Assembly (NCBI GenBank): GCA_963662265.2
Contig: CAXXHA010000010.1
Location: forward strand, 1-64,000
Reading direction: 5' to 3'
Length of the DNA stretch: 64,000 nucleotides
DNA from: Spirochaetia bacterium
GTDB lineage: Bacteria; Spirochaetota; Spirochaetia; CADAEX01
Shown here: positions 49,872 through 56,414 of the stretch, piece after piece
Layout of the letters: every line of letters starts with the position of its first letter
Numbering within the stretch: the stretch's first letter is position 1
Notes under the pieces: generated by a model
What the model was told of the DNA's origin: nothing
Database searches by the model: none
The model's input: only the letters and a program-made list of their open reading frames with translations
Position numbers and translations under genes: made by a program

Positions 49872-51962
49872 ATGAGACTCAACGTAAAATGGAAGATCCT
49901 TCTTCCGGTAGTATTAATTCTTGTAATCTCCCTGGGAACAGTTACAGGATATTCGTACCTGCTTCAGAAAAAAATGGTGCATGATCTTATGGAAACAACT
50001 GCAGCTGAACAGCTGTCTGAAATAAGCAACATTGTAGAATCTTCAGAAAAACAGATCAGAAATCTTAAAAGTTCTCTCAACAGGAATTACCTGAGAATTG
50101 CAGAAACAATTGCAATAGCTGTCAAGGATGGAAGCAGTATTCTTGAAACAGGAAAAATGACAGAACTTGCAGAAACTGCAGGAATTGATGAAATCCATGT
50201 TACTGATGAAAACGGGATCCTCAGATGGGGAAACAAAACTGGTTTCTACGGATTTGATTTCAATACAAGCGATCAGACACAACCCTTTCTTGCGGGACTG
50301 AAAAATCCCTCCTTCCAGCTTGCCCAGGATCCCCAGCAGAGGGGTACAGACAAGGTCCTTTTTCAGTACATCGGTGTTGGGAGAAAAGACAGACCTGGAA
50401 TAGTACAGATAGGGGTTCAGCCGCTTGAGCTCAACAACCTTCTGGAATCATCATCAATCAGGAACACACTCAAAAACCTCAATATATCAAGGTCAGGTGT
50501 TGTCTATATTATCAATTCTGATGGAACAATTGCTGAAAGCTCTGCAATACTCAATGATAAACATCTTAACCCGGAATTGTGGAATTTCATTAAAAATTCC
50601 GGTAAAGAGGGAAAAGGCATTGTTGAAGACAGGTATGCAGGATTCATGGAAAACGATGATTACATATGGATGGTCACTTACCCGCTTACAGAGTTCACAT
50701 CAGAACTGAACAGCTTCCTTATACATGTCTTTATCATGTTTATTGTGCTTGCAGCAGTATCTGCAGCTGTAATCCTTCTCATTGTAAGCAGGATCACAAA
50801 TCCGCTTAAGAAAGGTGTAACTTTTGCAAACATGATTGCTCAAGGGGACCTCACAGCAGACCTTGAAGTGAATACTTCAGATGAGGTAGGAGTTCTTGCA
50901 TCGACACTCAGGCAGATGGTAGGCAAAATCAGCAACGTGGTGGAAAAAGTAGCAGACACATCACTGACAGTTGCATCAGGCAGCAGGCAGCTGAGCCAGA
51001 ACACTGTAAAAATGGCAGAAGGTACAAGCTCCCAGGCATCAGCAACTGAAGAGGTTTCAGCTTCCATGGAGGAGATGAGCGCGAACATAACCCAGAATGC
51101 GGAAAACGCCGACACAACAGAGAGAATTGCGATGCAGGCAGCAAAAGATGCTGTTGAAAGCAGCAAGTCAGCTAAAAAAGCTGTTGATGCAATGAATGTT
51201 ATAAATGAGAAAATCAGCATTGTGGAAGAGATTGCAAGGCAGACAAATATGCTTGCTCTTAATGCTGCCATAGAAGCTGCCCGGGCAGGGGAGCAGGGAA
51301 AAGGCTTTGCAGTTGTTGCATCTGAAGTCAGGAAACTGGCAGAAAGAAGCCAACAGGCTGCCGGTGAAATAACAGAACTTACCCAGTTGACAAGCGCTTC
51401 AGCAGATGAGACATCTGCAATGCTTAAAAAGCTTGTAGACGGAATTAACCAGACAGCCGAGCTTGTCAGGGAGATAAGTTCGGCAAGCAGGGAGCAGAGC
51501 GGAGGAGTTCAGCAGGTAAACAGGGCAATTCTCCAGCTTGATGAGGTTGTTCAGCAGAACGCATCCTTCTCTGAAGAGATTTCAGCCACAAGCGAGGAGC
51601 TTACAGCGCAGGCTGAATTTCTACAGGAGACTGTTTCCTACTTCAGGATTGATAAATCATCTTCAACAGGGGAAGATGCAGGTCTTCTTCTCCCGGCCGA
51701 AAGAAATGCCGGCAATGGCAGAGCTGCGGAATTAAATACTGCGGGTGTTTCGGCAGGAAGGAAAAGCTCTTCAGGCAGTGCTTCTGTTATAAGGGCTGCC
51801 GGAGCCGGGCAGGTTCGGATCACATCAGGGGCTGCCGGGGCTGCGGGAAAAACAGAAGAAACAGCTGCAGTTTTCAAGGCAGTATCAGCTGCTGAGTCAT
51901 TAAACAACGGAAATCCTTCTGATACTGATTCGATGTCAGATGGAGGGTTTAAGGAGTTTTAG
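49872..51962 (+). CDS. Methyl-accepting chemotaxis protein
   Basis: TM-sensor-TM-HAMP, [40 protein letters not shown], and a flexible tail ending GFKEF. Confidence 0.95.
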
Positions 51963-52109
51963 GTGGATCTGAAATTCTTATTTCATGATAATTGCACCAA
52001 GATGATTATGCCGTATAGATAAGAAGCTGCTTATCGGAAATCCGAGAGTACCGGGATTAAGTAACCGGGAAATACAATCAGCTACAGGCTGTGTGCAAAC
52101 TTGAATATT

Positions 52110-52143
52110 AAAAAGGCCTGCTTTGACAAGCAGGTCTTTTTTT
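52110..52143. terminator. Bidirectional terminator between the MCP and VOC genes
   Basis: AAAAAGGCCTGCTT-TGAC-AAGCAGGTCTTTTTTT. Confidence 0.8.
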
Positions 52144-52153
52144 AAAAGGGATT

Positions 52154-52636
52154 CTACATCCCCATGCTTTCAAGCCATTCCTTTTCATTCTTTTTCATCT
52201 CATCTTCAGTAAGCTTCCACTTATTTGTCGCTATAGCCCAGACATGGCCGAAGGGATCAAGGACTTTCCCCATCCTGTCTCCCCAGAATGCATCCATTAT
52301 TTCATCCACAATTTCAGATCCGTTTTCCACCATTCCATTGTAAACAGCATCACAGTCTTCAACATATATAAACAAGCTCACAGTAGTCCCGTTAATAGCA
52401 CCTTTCTCCACACCTCCCGGATAGGAATCAGCCATCATAAGATTTGTATCCCCAATTCTTATCATTGAATGCATTATCTTATCACTGCCTGGAAAACTGT
52501 AAGGGGGAAAAACAAGTTCCGCCCCCAGCACTTTCCTGTAATATTCAATAGCTTCTGAACAGTTTCCATTAAACCACAGATTAGCTGTTACATTGTTCAT
52601 CCCTTCTGGGACAGGTTTTAATGCTTTTTCAGCCAT
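52154..52636 (-). CDS. VOC/PhnB-family (glyoxalase-like) protein
   Basis: AIEYYRKVLGA, IMHSMIRIGD, DAFWGDRMGKVLDPFGHVW. Confidence 0.9.
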   Translation of the reverse strand: MAEKALKPVPEGMNNVTANLWFNGNCSEAIEYYRKVLGAELVFPPYSFPGSDKIMHSMIRIGDTNLMMADSYPGGVEKGAINGTTVSLFIYVEDCDAVYNGMVENGSEIVDEIMDAFWGDRMGKVLDPFGHVWAIATNKWKLTEDEMKKNEKEWLESMGM

Positions 52637-52907
52637 TAAAATTCTCCTTGTATAGAGATCTGTAAGTATGAATAATTAAGCCTTGAATTTTCTGTTTAAA
52701 CACCTGAAACATTTTATACCTTACTTTTATTAATAGTAGTTTCAAAATGATCTGTTTTCAAAAGAAACTCTTACATGAGGCTGTATTTACAATAAATTTT
52801 AATAAAATCAGATATTCTGAAGGCTTTATAAATTAAACAGGACGAAAATTCTTTCTTCAGGACCGGAAGATAATTTCATATTTAAACAAGCAGTGTTTTA
52901 AATATAA

Positions 52908-52971
52908 AATAATATCGATATTATTGTATCCAATATTGACATTTTTCTTATTCGATACTATATTATCCATA
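52908..52971 (+). promoter_or_regulatory. Unit 1 promoter with TATCGATA operator
   Basis: Palindrome AATAATATCGATATTATT 52908-52925; TTGACA 52936-17-TATATT 52959. Confidence 0.75.
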
Positions 52972-53237
52972 CAGGTTGGGCAAACAACCTGTAGGTGAAA
53001 ATATTTTGTTTTTGAGAAAATCAAAAATAAAAAAAGAAAATAGAATGTACGAAAGACCTCTGGTAAATGGCAAAATAATATCAGAAATAAGGTCTTTCAA
53101 TAAAAAAACTGCAAATACGTCCGGCAAAACAGTATTTGCAGTTATAATCTAAGACTTTTTTATAGATTCCTCCTAACCTTCTAAAAAGAGTTTTATTCAT
53201 GGGAACCTGCTGTAAGTTTTACAGCAGGTTCTTTTTT
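52970..53237 (+). ncRNA. Candidate structured sRNA of about 270 nt (unit 1)
   Basis: Lies between a promoter and a U-tailed terminator (53203-53237); three hairpins with GGCAAA in their loops and one hairpin exposing TTCCTCCT; no RBS-led ORF. Confidence 0.6.
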
Positions 53238-53576
53238 CATTATTACCTCCTGTAATAATGAGTTGTTATTTATAAAACTGCAGTGAGTTTCACTGCAGTT
53301 TTTCTTTTTGCTGGCCGTTGCTGCATAAACAGGCTTTTTATACTTATAATTCTGCATTTATTTCACAGACTTATCCGCTGATCACCTGGCAGAAATCTTA
53401 TATTTCCCTATTAACAGCTTTCAAGGACTCTAAAGCTGTTAAACTTATTTCAACAGTGTTTTATCCTCCCGGAATAATTCTAATTATCACGCAGTCTAAA
53501 CACTGTTTTGCCCATATTCCCATATGGAGCCCACCTGTCTACCTATCTAACTACCCAGAACCATGTAGATAAATTT

Positions 53577-53637
53577 TTATCGATAATTACATATCTTATA
53601 TTGACATTTTTTATTTTCGATAGTATGTTATCGATAG
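53577..53637 (+). promoter_or_regulatory. Unit 2 promoter with two TATCGATA operators
   Basis: TTATCGATAA 53577-53586; TTGACA 53601-17-TATGTT 53624; TTATCGATAG 53628-53637. Confidence 0.75.
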
Positions 53638-53676
53638 TTAGAGATTGAAATAAATAGTATTTCAAGGAGGACAATT

Positions 53677-53772
53677 ATGTTAGAAATTTTAATTGTAGCT
53701 ATTATAGCAGCTGGTGCAGTTTTTGCATTCATAGAAGACGGTCGTGTTAGTCCTAACGGAATCGACTGGTAA
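53677..53772 (+). CDS. 31-aa hydrophobic peptide MLEILIVAIIAAGAVFAFIEDGRVSPNGIDW
   Basis: AAGGAGG RBS 53664-53670, own promoter, paralogue at 54205; too short for the ORF track. Confidence 0.75.
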   Translation: MLEILIVAIIAAGAVFAFIEDGRVSPNGIDW

Positions 53773-53803
53773 TCTAGAAAAAACTTGTTTTGAGGAGATC
53801 AAA

Positions 53804-53947
53804 ATGAAAAAAATACTTAGTAAATTATCAGAAAGACCATTTATCAATGGCAAACAGAGACATATTAAAAAAGAAGGCCTTTCAATTAAGGCAGTTGCAG
53901 AAGCAACAGGAAAATCAATTGAATCTGTACTTTCAATGAAATTCTAA
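53804..53947 (+). CDS. 47-aa basic peptide with HTH-like C-terminus
   Basis: GAGGAG RBS, ATG 53804; MKKILSKLSERPFINGKQRHIKKEGLSIKAVAEATGKSIESVLSMKF. Confidence 0.6.
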   Translation: MKKILSKLSERPFINGKQRHIKKEGLSIKAVAEATGKSIESVLSMKF

Positions 53948-53991
53948 AACTTCTTTTTAACTTCAAACCTTCTAAATTTTGAGTTTTATTC

Positions 53992-54028
53992 AAAAGACCT
54001 GCTGAGCCGTATACAGCAGGTCTTTTTT
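53992..54028 (+). terminator. Unit 2 terminator
   Basis: AAAAGACCTGCTG/CAGCAGGTCTTTT stem plus T-run. Confidence 0.8.
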
Positions 54029-54102
54029 AATTTTTCAGTGAAAATCATTGATAACCTTTGTTCAGGAAGTAGATAAATAAAAATCATGCATTTTGATAAT
54101 AT

Positions 54103-54164
54103 ATTATCGATAATGCTGTATCCATACTTGACTTTTTCAGTTATCCTTTATACATTATCAATAA
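54103..54164 (+). promoter_or_regulatory. Unit 3 promoter with TATCGATA operators
   Basis: ATTATCGATAAT 54103-54114; TTGACT 54128-17-TACATT 54151; TTATCAATAA 54155-54164. Confidence 0.75.
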
Positions 54165-54204
54165 CTTTAAATACGATTTTAATAATCTTGTTAAGGAGGC
54201 CAGC

Positions 54205-54306
54205 ATGTTACTTATCAATACTTTAGTAATCATGGCTATTGCAGCAGGAGTTTTAGCTGCATTCATTGAAGATGGAAAAACAGCACCAAATTGCTGTGAC
54301 TGGTAG
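54205..54306 (+). CDS. 33-aa hydrophobic peptide MLLINTLVIMAIAAGVLAAFIEDGKTAPNCCDW
   Basis: TAAGGAGG RBS 54192-54199; shares IAAG...AFIEDG...PN..DW-stop with the 53677 peptide, with synonymous changes between them. Confidence 0.75.
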   Translation: MLLINTLVIMAIAAGVLAAFIEDGKTAPNCCDW

Positions 54307-54517
54307 AAAGTAGTCTGAAGATTTCAGATACTTGTAAAAACTGAAAACAATCAGTAGAAAGGTCTGTAATTTACAACAGGATTAACAATATAGAGAAAGG
54401 AAGACCTTTCACATTACATTCCATGATGCTGCAGCAAAAACAACAGAATCGGCATCCGGAATGTAAAACAAAAGACTTTTTAGATTCCTCCAAAATTCTA
54501 AAAAGAGTTTTATTTCC

Positions 54518-54550
54518 AGGCCCCGCAGCGTTGCTGAGGGGCCTTTTTTT
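54518..54550 (+). terminator. Unit 3 terminator
   Basis: AGGCCCC-GCAGC...GCTG-AGGGGCCT stem plus T-run. Confidence 0.8.
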
Positions 54551-54685
54551 CCCCCTTTCACGCAAATACCCATTCTCTCGGCAGCTTCATAAGATTTAAT
54601 AATAAAATTCCGCCTCTTGCGATTTATATGCATATCATGCAACTTCAACCATCCAGGTATTTTTACAAAATAATTACAGACTGTA

Positions 54686-54740
54686 TTGACTTTTTCCCTT
54701 TTCGATAGTATTATATCGATAACAAGTTACCGATAACAAG
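54686..54740 (+). promoter_or_regulatory. Unit 4 promoter with downstream operators
   Basis: TTGACT 54686-17-TATTAT 54709; ATATCGATAAC 54713-54723 and GTTACCGATAAC 54726-54737. Confidence 0.65.
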
Positions 54741-54802
54741 CAATATTTCTGATGGCCAGAAATGTTTGACTTTATAAATACAACTGGAATAAGGCTGGAG
54801 AT

Positions 54803-54835
54803 AAAAAAAATCCCGGATCCGAAGAACCGGGATTT
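54803..54835 (-). terminator. gdhA terminator, possibly also ending the unit 4 transcript
   Basis: A8 followed by the AAATCCCGG/CCGGGATTT stem. Confidence 0.75.
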
Positions 54836-54871
54836 ATATAAGCCTAATCAGGCTAAATATAAAACTATATC

Positions 54872-56209
54872 CTAGTAACCGAGATCAAGCATTGCATCTG
54901 CAACTTTCTTGAAACCGGCAATATTAGCACCGTTGATGTAGTTTACAAAACCTGAAGCATCTTTGCCTTCTCTAACACAAGCAGCGTGGATGTCTTTCAT
55001 GATTACTTTGAGTTTTGCATCAACTTCTTCAGATGACCAGTTGTATTTCATTGAGTTCTGGCACATTTCAAGACCTGATACTGCAACACCACCGGCATTA
55101 GCAGCTTTACCAGGACCAAACGGGATCTTGTTTTTAACAAACTCAACTGCAGCATCTGCAGTACAGCCCATGTTGGATGTTTCAACAACATATTTAACAC
55201 CGTTTGAGATAAGAGCTTTTGCATCATCGAGAGTAAGCTCGTTCTGGAAAGCACAGGGGAATGCCATATCAACTTTAAGTTCCCATGGTTTTTTACCTGC
55301 AACAAATTTTGCGCCGAATTTTTCAGCGTAAGGAGCTACAACATCATTGTTGGAAGCTCTGAGCTCAAGCATATAGTCAAATTTTTCTTTTGTATTGATA
55401 CCTGCTTCATCATAGATGTATCCGTCAGGTCCAGAAATTGCCACTACTTTACCACCAAGTTCAGTAGCCTTCATTACAGCACCCCAGGCAACATTACCGA
55501 AACCTGAAACAGCAATTGTTTTGCCTTTCATTGAATCATTGTTTGTTTTGAGCATTTCATCAGCAAAATACATTGTACCAAAACCAGTTGCTTCAGGTCT
55601 TACAAGTGAACCGCCCCAGTTAAGGCCTTTACCTGTGAGTACACCTGTGTTTTCAGCTCTGAGTCTCTTGTACTGACCATACATGAAACCGATTTCTCTT
55701 CCGCCTACTCCGATATCACCTGCAGGAACGTCAGTCTGAGGACCGATATATTTCTGAAGTTCTGTCATGAAACTTCGACAGAATCTCATGATTTCTGCAT
55801 CTGATTTACCTTTAGGATTAAAGTCTGAACCACCTTTACCTCCACCCATTGGGAGAGTAGTAAGACTGTTTTTGAAAATCTGCTCAAATCCGAGGAATTT
55901 AAGAGTTCCGAGAGTAACGCTTGGGTGGAATCTGAGTCCGCCCTTATATGGACCAATAGCGTTGTTAAACTGAACTCTGTAAGCCTTGTTTACCTGTACT
56001 TCACCGTTATCATCTTCCCATTCAACTTTGAACATGAAAGTTCTGTCCGGCTCAGTAATTCTTTCAAGGATTTTTGCATCTACATATGCAGGGTTGTCGT
56101 TAACTACATCAATAATAGATTCAACTACTTCTTTTGCAGCCTGAATAAATTCCGGCTGAGCTGGGTTTTTTCTTTCCAGTTCTGCCATAAATTCGTCAAG
56201 ATTATACAT
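54872..56209 (-). CDS. gdhA: NAD(P)-specific glutamate dehydrogenase
   Basis: GPYKGGLRFHPSV, LPMGGGKGGSDF, DVPAGDIGVG, RPEATGFG, GFGNVA; AAGGAG RBS before ATG 56209. Confidence 0.96.
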   Translation of the reverse strand: MYNLDEFMAELERKNPAQPEFIQAAKEVVESIIDVVNDNPAYVDAKILERITEPDRTFMFKVEWEDDNGEVQVNKAYRVQFNNAIGPYKGGLRFHPSVTLGTLKFLGFEQIFKNSLTTLPMGGGKGGSDFNPKGKSDAEIMRFCRSFMTELQKYIGPQTDVPAGDIGVGGREIGFMYGQYKRLRAENTGVLTGKGLNWGGSLVRPEATGFGTMYFADEMLKTNNDSMKGKTIAVSGFGNVAWGAVMKATELGGKVVAISGPDGYIYDEAGINTKEKFDYMLELRASNNDVVAPYAEKFGAKFVAGKKPWELKVDMAFPCAFQNELTLDDAKALISNGVKYVVETSNMGCTADAAVEFVKNKIPFGPGKAANAGGVAVSGLEMCQNSMKYNWSSEEVDAKLKVIMKDIHAACVREGKDASGFVNYINGANIAGFKKVADAMLDLGY

Positions 56210-56414
56210 TTCTAACAGCTCCTTAAAACATTTTAATACCACCCCTCAGGGCGGTATTACTTATCTATATATAAAGCCTATTTCTGATATTAATCAAGTA
56301 TTAATATTGGCCTATCTATACATCTATACAAGTTAAATCATGAATATTGTTGATATTTAACATAGTGGTGTATTATTATTAAGAAAACGAACATTCTTTT
56401 TTAAGGAATTTACA

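What the first reader, a model, noticed from the sequence alone, without database searches (positions are those of the whole stretch)
53664..54306. Unannotated paralogous single-TM microproteins ending in PNxxDW
Seen: MLEILIVAIIAAGAVFAFIEDGRVSPNGIDW (53677-53772) and MLLINTLVIMAIAAGVLAAFIEDGKTAPNCCDW (54205-54306), both behind AAGGAGG. Conserved residues use different codons (ATA/ATT, GAC/GAT, GGT/GGA, CCT/CCA, AAC/AAT, TAA/TAG), which points to selection on the protein. Established: about 30-aa single-TM peptides act as type I toxins or as regulators of transporters and kinases (MgrB, AcrZ types). Inference: the acidic FIEDG..DW tail differs from the basic tails of most type I toxins, so a regulatory role looks more likely.
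Basis: partly seen in the sequence, partly recalled or inferred. Interest (0 to 1): 0.8.

Follow-up and report, generated by a model that had tools for sequence, protein, structure and literature searches.

The report
New spirochaete membrane microprotein family
Two tiny genes in an uncultured spirochaete encode real, conserved one-helix membrane proteins of a previously undescribed family, carried in a repeated control cassette with a mini DNA-binding protein and a structured RNA; what they do is still unknown.

Summary
ORF1 (53677-53772, 31 aa) and ORF2 (54205-54306, 33 aa) each lie behind AAGGAGG and are paralogues. Orthologues in a sister species evolve under purifying selection (dN/dS 0.19 and 0.11). 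A profile finds only 9 representatives among 1.84 billion proteins. Among genomes searched, the family occurs in one Spirochaetia genus only (3 of 401 class genomes). No library names it.

The ORFs lie in four tandem cassettes. Each has a sigma-70-like promoter bracketed by TTATCGATAA-type dyads that occur as a module nowhere else in the genome. Cassette 2 also encodes a conserved 47-aa helix-turn-helix-like protein (dN/dS 0.16). Cassettes 1 and 3 carry decayed copies of that gene, kept as hairpin RNA with a CCUCC (anti-Shine-Dalgarno) loop. Cassette 1 has no microprotein ORF, yet its 3' end is the best-conserved DNA of the locus.

Function is inferred only:
- Dose-sensitive, toxin-like membrane effector gated by the repressor and anti-SD RNA: about 0.4.

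No antisense antitoxin RNA was found, so this is not filed as a type I toxin-antitoxin system.

The parts
52912..52972 (+). Cassette 1 promoter/operator module. Dyad ATATCGATAT at 52912-52921, -35 TTGACA at 52936-52941, -10 TATATT at 52959-52964, TTATCCATAC at 52963-52972.
   Evidence: Repeat family D1, promoter scan 11/12, nhmmer E 5.7e-16.
52973..53233 (+). Cassette 1 transcript with no microprotein ORF. It is a decayed copy of the 47-aa gene (SD and ATG lost) kept as hairpins H1, H2 and H3. H3 has loop UUCCUCCUAACCU, with the anti-SD at 53167-53173. Terminator T1 is at 53201-53233.
   Evidence: Alignment to the intact gene. Fold z -10.5 in G000 and -8.8 in G011 with the same hairpin layout. 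100% identity to G011 at 53170-53209. Terminator scan.
53238..53302 (+). Hairpin H4 (53238-53260, loop CUCCU) and second terminator T2 (53274-53302), after cassette 1.
   Evidence: (the hairpin was picked up as a chance mir-126 hit). 82-95% identical to G011.
53577..53637 (+). Cassette 2 promoter/operator module. TTATCGATAA at 53577-53586, -35 TTGACA at 53601-53606, -10 TATGTT at 53624-53629, TTATCGATAG at 53628-53637.
   Evidence: nhmmer E 1.7e-18. 88-93% identical to G011.
53664..53772 (+). SD AAGGAGG (53664-53670) and microprotein ORF1 (53677-53772, 31 aa).
53804..53947 (+). 47-aa helix-turn-helix-like protein (HTH47), with its own SD GAGGAG 6 nt upstream. Candidate repressor of the four promoters.
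   Evidence: 5 close homologues. dN/dS 0.16. AF2 helices 28-35 and 39-43. Sub-threshold Pfam HTH hits in 4 of 6 members. Present in 3 of 3 genus genomes.
53968..54029 (+). Cassette 2 3' end. CCUUCU (53968-53973) is predicted to pair with the ORF1 SD. The terminator hairpin ends at about 54029.
   Evidence: MFE pairing in G000 and G011. P(SD unpaired) 0.044 and 0.028 against 0.34 and 0.37 with shuffled tails. Repeat D2.
54104..54164 (+). Cassette 3 promoter/operator module. TTATCGATAA at 54104-54113, -35 TTGACT at 54128-54133, -10 TACATT at 54151-54156, TTATCAATAA at 54155-54164.
   Evidence: nhmmer E 1.1e-12.
54193..54306 (+). SD AAGGAGG (54193-54199) and microprotein ORF2 (54205-54306, 33 aa).
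54307..54550 (+). Cassette 3 3' UTR. A decayed copy of the 47-aa gene, folded as H1 (GAAAGGUCU/AGACCUUUC), H2 and H3 (arms 54466-54484 and 54497-54515, loop UUCCUCCAAAAU at 54485-54496). Terminator at 54519-54550.
   Evidence: (I9). Fold z -6.6.
54686..54722 (+). Cassette 4. A promoter/operator remnant with no recognisable gene downstream; absent from the G011 locus.
   Evidence: nhmmer E 1.3e-12.

Best explanation
ORF1 and ORF2 are genuine genes of a new family of 30-44-aa single-pass membrane proteins, found in one genus only. Each has one helix from residue 2 to about 24, an invariant juxtamembrane E-D, and a short acidic tail that ends in Trp in 11 of 12 aligned members.

At this locus they are the cargo of a cassette present in four tandem copies. 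The cassette is a promoter bracketed by TTATCNATAA-type dyads about 50 bp apart, then the microprotein ORF, then the 47-aa HTH gene or its decayed, hairpin-forming copy with a CCUCC loop, then a terminator.

Proposed working:
(1) HTH47 binds the dyads and represses all four promoters, its own included. This is inferred from the architecture.
(2) Translation of the microprotein is further held down by pairing of its AGGAGG SD with a 3' CCUUCU/CCUCC element. This is predicted for cassette 2 only.
(3) When released, the peptide inserts into the cytoplasmic membrane after translation, with its acidic Cys/His/Trp tail probably outside. This is a weak inference from charge distribution.
(4) It then acts as a dose-sensitive, toxin-like membrane effector. 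The module would be a hybrid of type I and type II toxin-antitoxin logic.

My confidence that the genes and the cassette are real is about 0.9. My confidence in step 4 is about 0.4.
For: Shown:
- Paralogy, purifying selection and intact frames in all 6 genomic copies from 3 species.
- Nine family representatives in 1.84 billion proteins.
- A helix at residues 2-26.
- Four tandem cassettes with start-to-start spacing of 665, 527 and 558 nt.
- The promoter/operator module occurs only here in the genome: four hits at E 1e-12 to 1e-18, next best E 0.1.
- HTH47 is conserved as a protein (dN/dS 0.16), found in the same genus only (3 of 20 family genomes), and HTH-like.
- The ORF1 SD is predicted to pair with 3' CCUUCU in both species, with accessibility below shuffled tails in 38 of 40 and 40 of 40 shuffles.
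- Cassettes 1 and 3 are decayed copies of the HTH gene. Hairpin H1 has a double compensatory change: GAAAGACCU/AGGUCUUUC in cassette 1 against GAAAGGUCU/AGACCUUUC in cassette 3. The H3 CCUCC loop is conserved in 4 of 4 non-coding copies.
- The 3' end of cassette 1 is the best-conserved DNA of the locus, 95-100% against 78-90% for the ORFs.

From the literature: tandem repeats with hydrophobic ORFs, and SD/anti-SD with 5'-3' long-distance interactions, are the features used to recognise type I toxin loci (PMC8594479, passages).

Patchy copy number also fits an accessory, selfish-type module: 1 to 3 copies per genome, and the ORF is missing from cassette 1 and from the G010 cassette.
Against: - No antisense promoter was found opposite ORF2. 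The one opposite ORF1 (53853 to 53824) is not conserved in G011 (and my reading).
- Cassette 1 RNA shows no complementarity to the ORF mRNAs beyond shuffles in 3 of 4 tests: 12/200, 121/200, 0/200 and 140/200 shuffles did as well.
- In cassette 3 the SD is no less accessible than with shuffled tails (22/40 and 40/40).
- The CCUCC hairpin and the dyads also occur in G010, where the cassette holds only the HTH gene. They may therefore serve the HTH gene and not the microprotein.
- Family members at the second locus (G010, G011) have no dyads, no HTH gene and no CCUCC element, which is odd for a toxin.
- Invariant E-D and terminal W, and two old paralogue lineages each under purifying selection, suggest a specific partner rather than generic membrane damage.
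- There is no expression or toxicity evidence of any kind.
Confidence: 0.4

Rival explanations
1. The microproteins are regulators or accessory subunits that bind a partner membrane protein, in the manner of MgrB, AcrZ, MgtS or KdpF. The helix would dock on a larger membrane protein (sensor kinase, transporter). The conserved E-D and the Cys/His/Trp tail would tune its activity or sense redox state or metal. The HTH-controlled promoter would simply set the condition of expression.
For: - Invariant or near-invariant I12, A14, A19, E22, D23 and terminal W across 12 members.
- Two tail subfamilies..TAPxxCDW and ..EAHHKxxW, rich in metal or redox ligand residues.
- Both paralogue lineages are kept under purifying selection in two species.
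- Stand-alone members sit next to a DUF401 permease and other small helix ORFs, with no antitoxin-like element.
- MgrB likewise needs periplasmic C28 and C39 and its last residue W47 (PMC8404706, passages).
Against: - No partner is identified.
- The neighbours at this locus (glyoxalase-family gene, gdh) are not membrane proteins, and the upstream neighbour differs in G010.
- No sequence similarity to any named small-protein family.
- Copy number varies, and the ORF has been lost from cassettes.
- Layered repression is not typical of the known regulators (my recollection).
Confidence: 0.35
2. The ORFs are precursors of an exported or processed peptide, such as a signal or a modified peptide. 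The hydrophobic N-terminus would be the export part and the C-terminal 7-12 residues the active part.
For: - The variable, Cys- or Trp-containing C-terminal tails after a conserved helix resemble pro-peptide layouts.
- A small DNA-binding protein is encoded next to ORF1.
Against: - There is no basic N-region as in signal peptides; both start MLE/MLL.
- No peptidase, modification enzyme, exporter or large receptor gene lies in the 2.2-kb gene-poor gap.
- HTH47 is far too small for a peptide-binding receptor domain.
- The ABC protein at the second locus is two ATPase domains without a membrane domain.
Confidence: 0.07
3. The ORFs are incidental. The locus would be a set of non-coding RNAs or operator arrays, and the reading frames would not be translated.
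For: - The locus is rich in conserved RNA structure.
- Cassette 1 works without an ORF.
- No RNA or proteomic data exist.
Against: - dN/dS is 0.11-0.19, with changes concentrated at third codon positions.
- Strong SD at ideal spacing.
- Frames are intact in all 6 genomic copies.
- Family members exist at a second, unrelated locus.
- Nine diverged representatives all keep the frame and the terminal motif.
Confidence: 0.03

Closest known systems
Type I toxin-antitoxin loci (hok/sok, ldr/rdl, ibs/sib, zor/orz, aapA/isoA)
   Same: - Hydrophobic ORF of about 30 aa with a strong SD.
- Tandemly repeated intergenic cassettes with their own promoter and terminator.
- Narrow taxonomic range.
- A predicted 5'-3' pairing that hides the SD (cassette 2).
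- An ORF-less RNA paralogue in the same array.
The features are as listed in PMC8594479.
   Different: - No complementary antisense RNA was found.
- All cassettes are on the same strand.
- A protein (HTH47) is co-transcribed, and protein-binding dyads flank the promoters.
- No homology to any named toxin family.
- Toxicity is untested.
MgrB (47-aa inhibitor of PhoQ) and other small membrane regulators (AcrZ, MgtS, KdpF)
   Same: - Single helix and a short extra-membrane tail.
- Cys residues and a C-terminal Trp. MgrB depends on C28, C39 and W47 (PMC8404706).
- Expression from a regulated promoter.
   Different: - No sequence similarity.
- Only 30-44 aa, with almost no N-terminal segment and no basic cytoplasmic residues.
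- The partner and the regulon are unknown.
- Tandem cassette structure with an anti-SD RNA.
Type II toxin-antitoxin operons with the toxin gene first (higBA and mqsRA type; recalled)
   Same: A two-gene operon of a small effector followed by a small autoregulating DNA-binding protein, with operator dyads over the promoter.
   Different: - The first gene product is a membrane peptide, not a soluble enzyme.
- ORF2 and the second-locus members lack an adjacent HTH gene.
- G010 has the HTH gene alone.
C-rich-loop small RNAs that pair with Shine-Dalgarno sequences (RoxS/RsaE, RNAIII hairpins; recalled)
   Same: Cassette 1 RNA presents CCUCC in the loops of stable hairpins (H3, H4) upstream of terminators.
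   Different: - It derives from a decayed protein-coding gene.
- No target with extended complementarity was found in the genome.
- No Rfam family matches.

Membership tests
Type I toxin-antitoxin system | Small hydrophobic (membrane) peptide ORF | tested here: met
   31 and 33 aa. Hydropathy 2.4 over the first 20 residues. AF2 helix at residues 2-26.
Type I toxin-antitoxin system | Antitoxin RNA with a region complementary to the toxin mRNA (cis-antisense or divergent) | tested here: inconclusive
   - No minus-strand promoter-like site lies 3' of ORF2; the one opposite ORF1 is not conserved in G011.
- The duplex between cassette 1 RNA and the mRNAs is no better than shuffles in 3 of 4 tests.
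- The I5 complementarity is not conserved in G011 (my reading).
- No transcript data exist.
Type I toxin-antitoxin system | SD sequestered by an anti-SD or a 5'-3' long-distance interaction in the toxin mRNA | tested here: inconclusive
   - Cassette 2: yes in both species.
- Cassette 3: no in nested folds (22/40 and 40/40 shuffles as low or lower). Its CCUCC sits in a hairpin loop instead.
Type I toxin-antitoxin system | Toxicity on overexpression | not testable with these tools
   Needs induced expression in a laboratory host.
Type I toxin-antitoxin system | Homology to a described toxin family | tested here: not met
   No Pfam, NCBIfam, PHROGs or PADLOC hit for either ORF. The best is phrog_35730 at E 0.15.
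MgrB/AcrZ-type small membrane regulators | Sequence membership in a named family | tested here: not met
   No Pfam or NCBIfam family at E up to 1 or 10.
MgrB/AcrZ-type small membrane regulators | Defined larger membrane partner, by binding or at least conserved adjacency or a shared regulon | tested here: inconclusive
   - No membrane-protein neighbour at the gdh locus.
- Second-locus members lie beside a DUF401 permease in G010 and G011.
- Binding is not testable here.
Type II toxin-antitoxin operon | Bicistronic operon with an autoregulating DNA-binding antitoxin | tested here: inconclusive
   - ORF1 and HTH47 lie 31 nt apart behind one dyad-flanked promoter, in G000 and in G011.
- DNA binding is untested.
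- ORF2 has only a decayed copy of the gene.
Type II toxin-antitoxin operon | Direct toxin-antitoxin protein binding | not testable with these tools
   Needs pull-down or co-expression rescue.
Peptide-pheromone cassettes (Rgg/SHP, RRNPP type) | Adjacent large receptor-regulator, and a pro-peptide with a basic N-region | tested here: not met
   - No ORF over 84 aa lies between 52637 and 54871.
- The peptides start MLE/MLL with no Lys or Arg.
Helix-turn-helix DNA-binding proteins (for the 47-aa neighbour) | Recognisable HTH fold or profile match | tested here: inconclusive
   - AF2 mean pLDDT 69; helices 28-35 and 39-43 at pLDDT 81-88.
- Foldseek has no hit at E<=0.001, though many of the weak top hits are HTH domains.
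- Pfam HTH_24 matches 4 of 6 members, best E 0.013, none above the curated cut-off.

The most novel reading that the evidence does not exclude
The locus is a new kind of hybrid addiction or switch module.
- A tiny HTH repressor gene was duplicated in tandem, and two copies decayed into structured anti-Shine-Dalgarno RNAs. One is free-standing (cassette 1) and one forms the 3' UTR of ORF2.
- HTH47, acting on transcription at the dyads of all four promoters, and the pseudogene-derived CCUCC-loop RNAs, acting on translation, jointly gate the membrane microproteins.
- The cassette 1 RNA region around hairpin H4 is 85% complementary to the translation start of HTH47 (I6). The repressor and the RNA could therefore repress each other and form a bistable switch that decides which cells make the membrane peptide.
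Probability: 0.2. Interest if true: 0.75.

Novelty: new variant of a known kind. Interest (0 to 1): 0.5.

Why it matters
- It adds a well-supported small-protein family from an uncultured spirochaete lineage. The evidence is selection, multiple loci and several species. The family has a clear signature (helix, E-D, tail ending in W) that could seed small-ORF catalogues.
- The locus looks like a protein-coding gene turning into structured regulatory RNA while keeping its promoter and operators.
- If the toxin-like reading is right, this would be a toxin-antitoxin layout that combines protein repression with anti-SD RNA, without a classical antisense partner.
- If the regulator reading is right, the Cys/His/Trp tails point to a redox- or metal-sensing input to an unknown membrane partner.

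Tried and rejected
- **Rfam**: an E-value scan of 52000-55500 gave only 4 chance-level hits (E 0.21-0.68), which are terminator or hairpin look-alikes.
- **Profile libraries**: Pfam, NCBIfam, PHROGs and PADLOC gave nothing usable for the ORFs.
- **ESM Atlas**: no usable hit.
- **Earlier findings of this scan**: none, by place or by sequence.
- **The search for homologous proteins**: it does not take queries under 40 aa, so I used the representative library instead.
- **The search for related loci**: the 12-row alignment has no stretch conserved enough, so I used the 6-row alignment.
  - Genome contigs: 330 pattern matches, 1 relative, which is G011's record.
  - Metagenome contigs: 382 pattern matches, 1 passing tblastn. 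On inspection it lies inside long ORFs of a GC-rich contig and is a false positive.
  - Viral contigs: 144 pattern matches, 0 relatives.
- **Wider genome searches**: a phylum sample of 401 genomes gave only sub-significant hits (E >= 0.009) inside long ORFs. A class sample gave 3 of 401 genomes, all in genus g1. In the order, 4 of 20 matched at E<=0.01; the fourth is a 19-bit partial hit that I discount.
- **Global regulon idea**: the dyad recalled a Fur-type box (from memory). TTATCGATAA occurs 17 times in the genome, against about 11 expected by my own arithmetic from base composition. TTATCNATAA occurs 108 times, with 3 pairs within 120 nt. One pair is cassette 3, one lies inside a 386-aa ORF, and one I did not examine. 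The weak nhmmer hit at C1:262096 (E 0.1) is an intergenic pair of TATCGATA sites. No regulon is evident.
- **Trans-target search**: looking for the complement of the cassette 1 loop found only the locus itself.
- **I5 complementarity**: the cassette 1 match to the ORF1 coding region is not conserved in G011 (my reading).
- **Sequencing runs**: no RNA holder listed.
- **Complex prediction (ORF1 with HTH47)**: no verdict.
- **Literature**: full-text search for AFIEDG, PNCCDW and PNGIDW found 0 occurrences in the listed rows; only the unrelated letter string 'afied' matched. A search on small membrane proteins in spirochaetes gave nothing on this family.
- **Second locus in G000**: the second-locus ABC protein was not found in G000. 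That genome is 90.6% complete, so its absence is not shown.
Full report
**Observation.**
- ORF1 runs from 53677 to 53772 (31 aa), with AAGGAGG 6 nt before the ATG.
- ORF2 runs from 54205 to 54306 (33 aa), with AAGGAGG 5 nt before the ATG.
- A six-frame search of the whole 3.77-Mb assembly with ORF2 finds only itself and ORF1 (E 4.6e-6, 47% identity). The paralogy is therefore real and the family has two copies in this genome.

**Are they genes?**
- The window is contig C10 of an assembly of an uncultured member of the Spirochaetia. The one named record that matched is a 'MAG: Spirochaetia bacterium' chromosome, which is G011.
- G011, a sister species, has the syntenic locus beside gdh with orthologues of both ORFs.
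- Nei-Gojobori counts between G000 and G011 give dN/dS of 0.19 for ORF1 and 0.11 for ORF2. Changes by codon position are 4/3/10 and 3/1/11.
- Between the two paralogues, synonymous sites are saturated (pS 0.83, pN 0.37).
- All six genomic copies in the three species of the genus have open frames with no internal stops.
- A profile of six members run against 1.84 billion representative proteins returns 9 proteins at E<=0.001, of 30-44 aa.
- AlphaFold2 with the 12-row alignment gives one helix over residues 2-26, with pLDDT about 95 for the first 20 residues, and a non-helical tail.
- No transcript or proteome evidence is available.

**The family.** Twelve aligned members share I12, A14, A19 and D23 as invariant positions, and E22 and the last residue W as nearly invariant.
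- Position 5 is polar: N, S or E.
- There are two tail types:
  - E-D-G-x-(T/V)-(A/S/T)-P-x-x-x-D-W, usually with Cys at -3 (PNCCDW, PICCDW, PRGCDW, PSGCDW, PNCWDW, PNGIDW).
  - E-D-x-x-E-A-H-H-K-x-x-W.
- Distribution among genomes searched is one genus:

| Set searched | Genomes with a match |
|---|---|
| Family/order | 3 of 20 (plus one 19-bit partial hit that I discount) |
| Class sample | 3 of 401 (1 of 156 genera) |
| Phylum sample of 401 | nothing credible |
| Viral contigs | none |
| JGI metagenome contigs | one false positive |

- No profile library names the family. The three motif strings do not occur in the searched literature.
- Sequences identical to both ORFs already sit, unnamed, among predicted proteins with NCBI and ENA as sources. 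'Unannotated' therefore cannot be affirmed.

The ORFs lie in a 2.2-kb gap without long ORFs, between a glyoxalase-family gene (52154-52636, minus strand) and gdh (54872-56242, minus strand). The gap holds four tandem cassettes with start-to-start spacing of 665, 527 and 558 nt.
- Each cassette opens with a 68-nt module. It has a TTATCGATAA-type dyad, about 15 nt of spacer, TTGAC(A/T), a 17-nt spacer containing TCGATA, a -10 box, and a second TTATCNATA(A/G/C) dyad at about +1.
- A DNA profile of the eight modules from three species finds only these four places in the genome, at E 1.7e-18 to 1.3e-12. The next hit is E 0.1.
- Isolated dyads elsewhere are at about chance frequency, and no regulon emerged.

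**What each cassette holds.**
- *Cassette 2* has ORF1. Then, 31 nt later and with its own GAGGAG, comes a 47-aa ORF (53804-53947), followed by a terminator.
  - The 47-aa ORF is a real gene. It has five close homologues in 5.8 billion proteins (74-92% identity) and dN/dS of 0.16.
  - It is present in 3 of 3 genus genomes and in 0 of 17 other genomes of the family.
  - Its C-terminal half models as helix-turn-helix (helices 28-35 and 39-43, pLDDT 81-88; mean pLDDT only 69).
  - Foldseek has no significant hit, but many of its weak top hits are HTH domains. Four of six members give sub-threshold Pfam HTH_24 matches.
  - I call it HTH47. I infer, but have not shown, that it binds the dyads.
- *Cassettes 1 and 3* align to the HTH47 gene along its length but have lost the frame. 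Cassette 1 has also lost the SD and the ATG.
- *Cassette 1* has no microprotein ORF.
- *Cassette 4* is a promoter module only and is absent in G011.
- In *G010*, the gdh locus holds one cassette with the HTH gene (48 aa), a CCUCC hairpin and a terminator, and no microprotein ORF.

**RNA features.** The decayed copies are kept as structure.
- Cassette 1 RNA folds into H1, H2, H3, T1, H4 and T2 in both species (z -10.5 and -8.8; 0 of 200 shuffles as stable), although the H1, H2 and T2 stems differ in sequence.
- H1 reads GAAAGACCU/AGGUCUUUC in cassette 1 and GAAAGGUCU/AGACCUUUC in cassette 3. That is a double compensatory change. The coding copies always carry a mismatch there (my reading).
- H3 presents UUCCUCC in its loop in all four non-coding copies. 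The only stem changes are to wobble pairs.
- H4 presents CUCCU in G000 and CCUCCGA in G011.
- The stretch 53130-53290 is the best-conserved DNA of the locus (82-100% identical), while the ORFs are 78-90% identical.
- In the full cassette 2 mRNA, the ORF1 SD is predicted to pair with CCUUCU at 53968-53973, just before the terminator, in both species.
  - Its unpaired probability is 0.044 in G000 and 0.028 in G011, against 0.34 and 0.37 with shuffled tails. As low or lower: 2 of 40 and 0 of 40 shuffles.
- For cassette 3 there is no such effect (22/40 and 40/40). In the isolated G011 3' UTR, H3 is not in the minimum-energy fold.
- These are predictions on assumed transcript ends.

**A second locus.** G011 and G010 each carry a His-type family member between a DUF401 permease gene and a two-domain ABC ATPase gene.
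- These members sit next to one or two other small helix ORFs of a different type (MGG...VAMVGGVA...KANKGK).
- They have their own AAGGAGG or AAGGGGG, but no dyads, no HTH gene and no CCUCC element.
- The ABC protein was not found in G000, whose assembly is 90.6% complete.

**Reading.** Firm points:
- This is a new family of single-helix membrane microproteins.
- At this locus the genes ride on a duplicated, locus-specific control cassette.

Reasonable inference:
- HTH47 represses the four promoters through the dyads.
- An anti-SD element limits translation.

Open: what the peptides do in the membrane.
- For a toxin-like, dose-sensitive effector:
  - the tandem cassettes;
  - the ORF-less RNA paralogue;
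  - the SD sequestration, a feature used to define type I toxin loci (PMC8594479, passages read);
  - the operon with a small DNA-binding protein;
  - the patchy copy number.
- For a partner-binding regulator:
  - the invariant E-D and terminal W;
  - the Cys/His tails, which parallel MgrB's C28, C39 and W47 (PMC8404706, passages read);
  - the long-lived paralogue lineages;
  - the uncontrolled second-locus members.
- I put these at about 0.4 and 0.35.
- The tail-outside topology is a weak inference from charge distribution. There is no basic flank, and the C-tail has a net charge of about -2 to -3.
- The locus is not filed as a type I TA system, because the defining complementary RNA was not found.
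- The acidic tail does not exclude a toxin. Fst is an example, from my recollection.

**Limits.**
- Only three genomes give context.
- The contigs of six further family representatives could not be fetched.
- No RNA data exist.
- All RNA pairings are predictions.

Noticed in passing
L024 1816-1905 (-) and 2187-2279 (-); L026 1214-1303 (+): A second family of 29-30-aa single-helix ORFs lies just upstream of the second-locus family member in G010 and G011. Examples are MGGLAIVAVLLVAMVGGVAMMVIKANKGK, MGGFILVLVILVAMVGGVAGMVIHANRNSF and MPGTTLILVIIALMFLGVSLVVLKASRWK. Each has a basic tail and its own strong SD. Together they form a small island of microprotein genes beside a DUF401 permease. No credible copy was found in G000.
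   Followed up: partly
window 53193-53240 (-): On the minus strand, AGGAGG followed 5 nt later by ATG opens a 15-codon frame (MKKEPAVKLTAGSHE) across terminator T1. In G011 it reads MKKEPAAKLAAGSHE. The two changes are the compensatory halves of the hairpin, so this is more likely RNA structure than a gene.
   Followed up: partly
window 53232-53251 versus 53793-53812: Inverted repeat I6. The tail of terminator T1 plus the 5' arm and loop of hairpin H4 is 85% complementary to the SD, AUG and first codons of the 47-aa gene. This could let read-through cassette 1 RNA pair with that start site. However, UUUUUUCAU against AUGAAAAAA is a generic match.
   Followed up: no
window 53330-53449: About 120 nt between cassettes 1 and 2 have no counterpart in the G011 locus. 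This looks like an insertion in G000 or a deletion in G011. Nothing was recognised in it.
   Followed up: no
G000 contig C1 262096-262177 (outside the window): This is the only other place with any resemblance to the promoter/operator module (nhmmer E 0.1). Two TATCGATA sites about 55 nt apart flank a TTGTCA in a region without a convincing ORF, so it may be an extra operator.
   Followed up: partly
window 52070-52144 (+): Weak Rfam hits (OrzO-P E 0.21, Thr_leader E 0.35) lie on the terminator hairpin after the chemoreceptor-like gene at 49872-51962. They are terminator look-alikes, not RNA genes.
   Followed up: no
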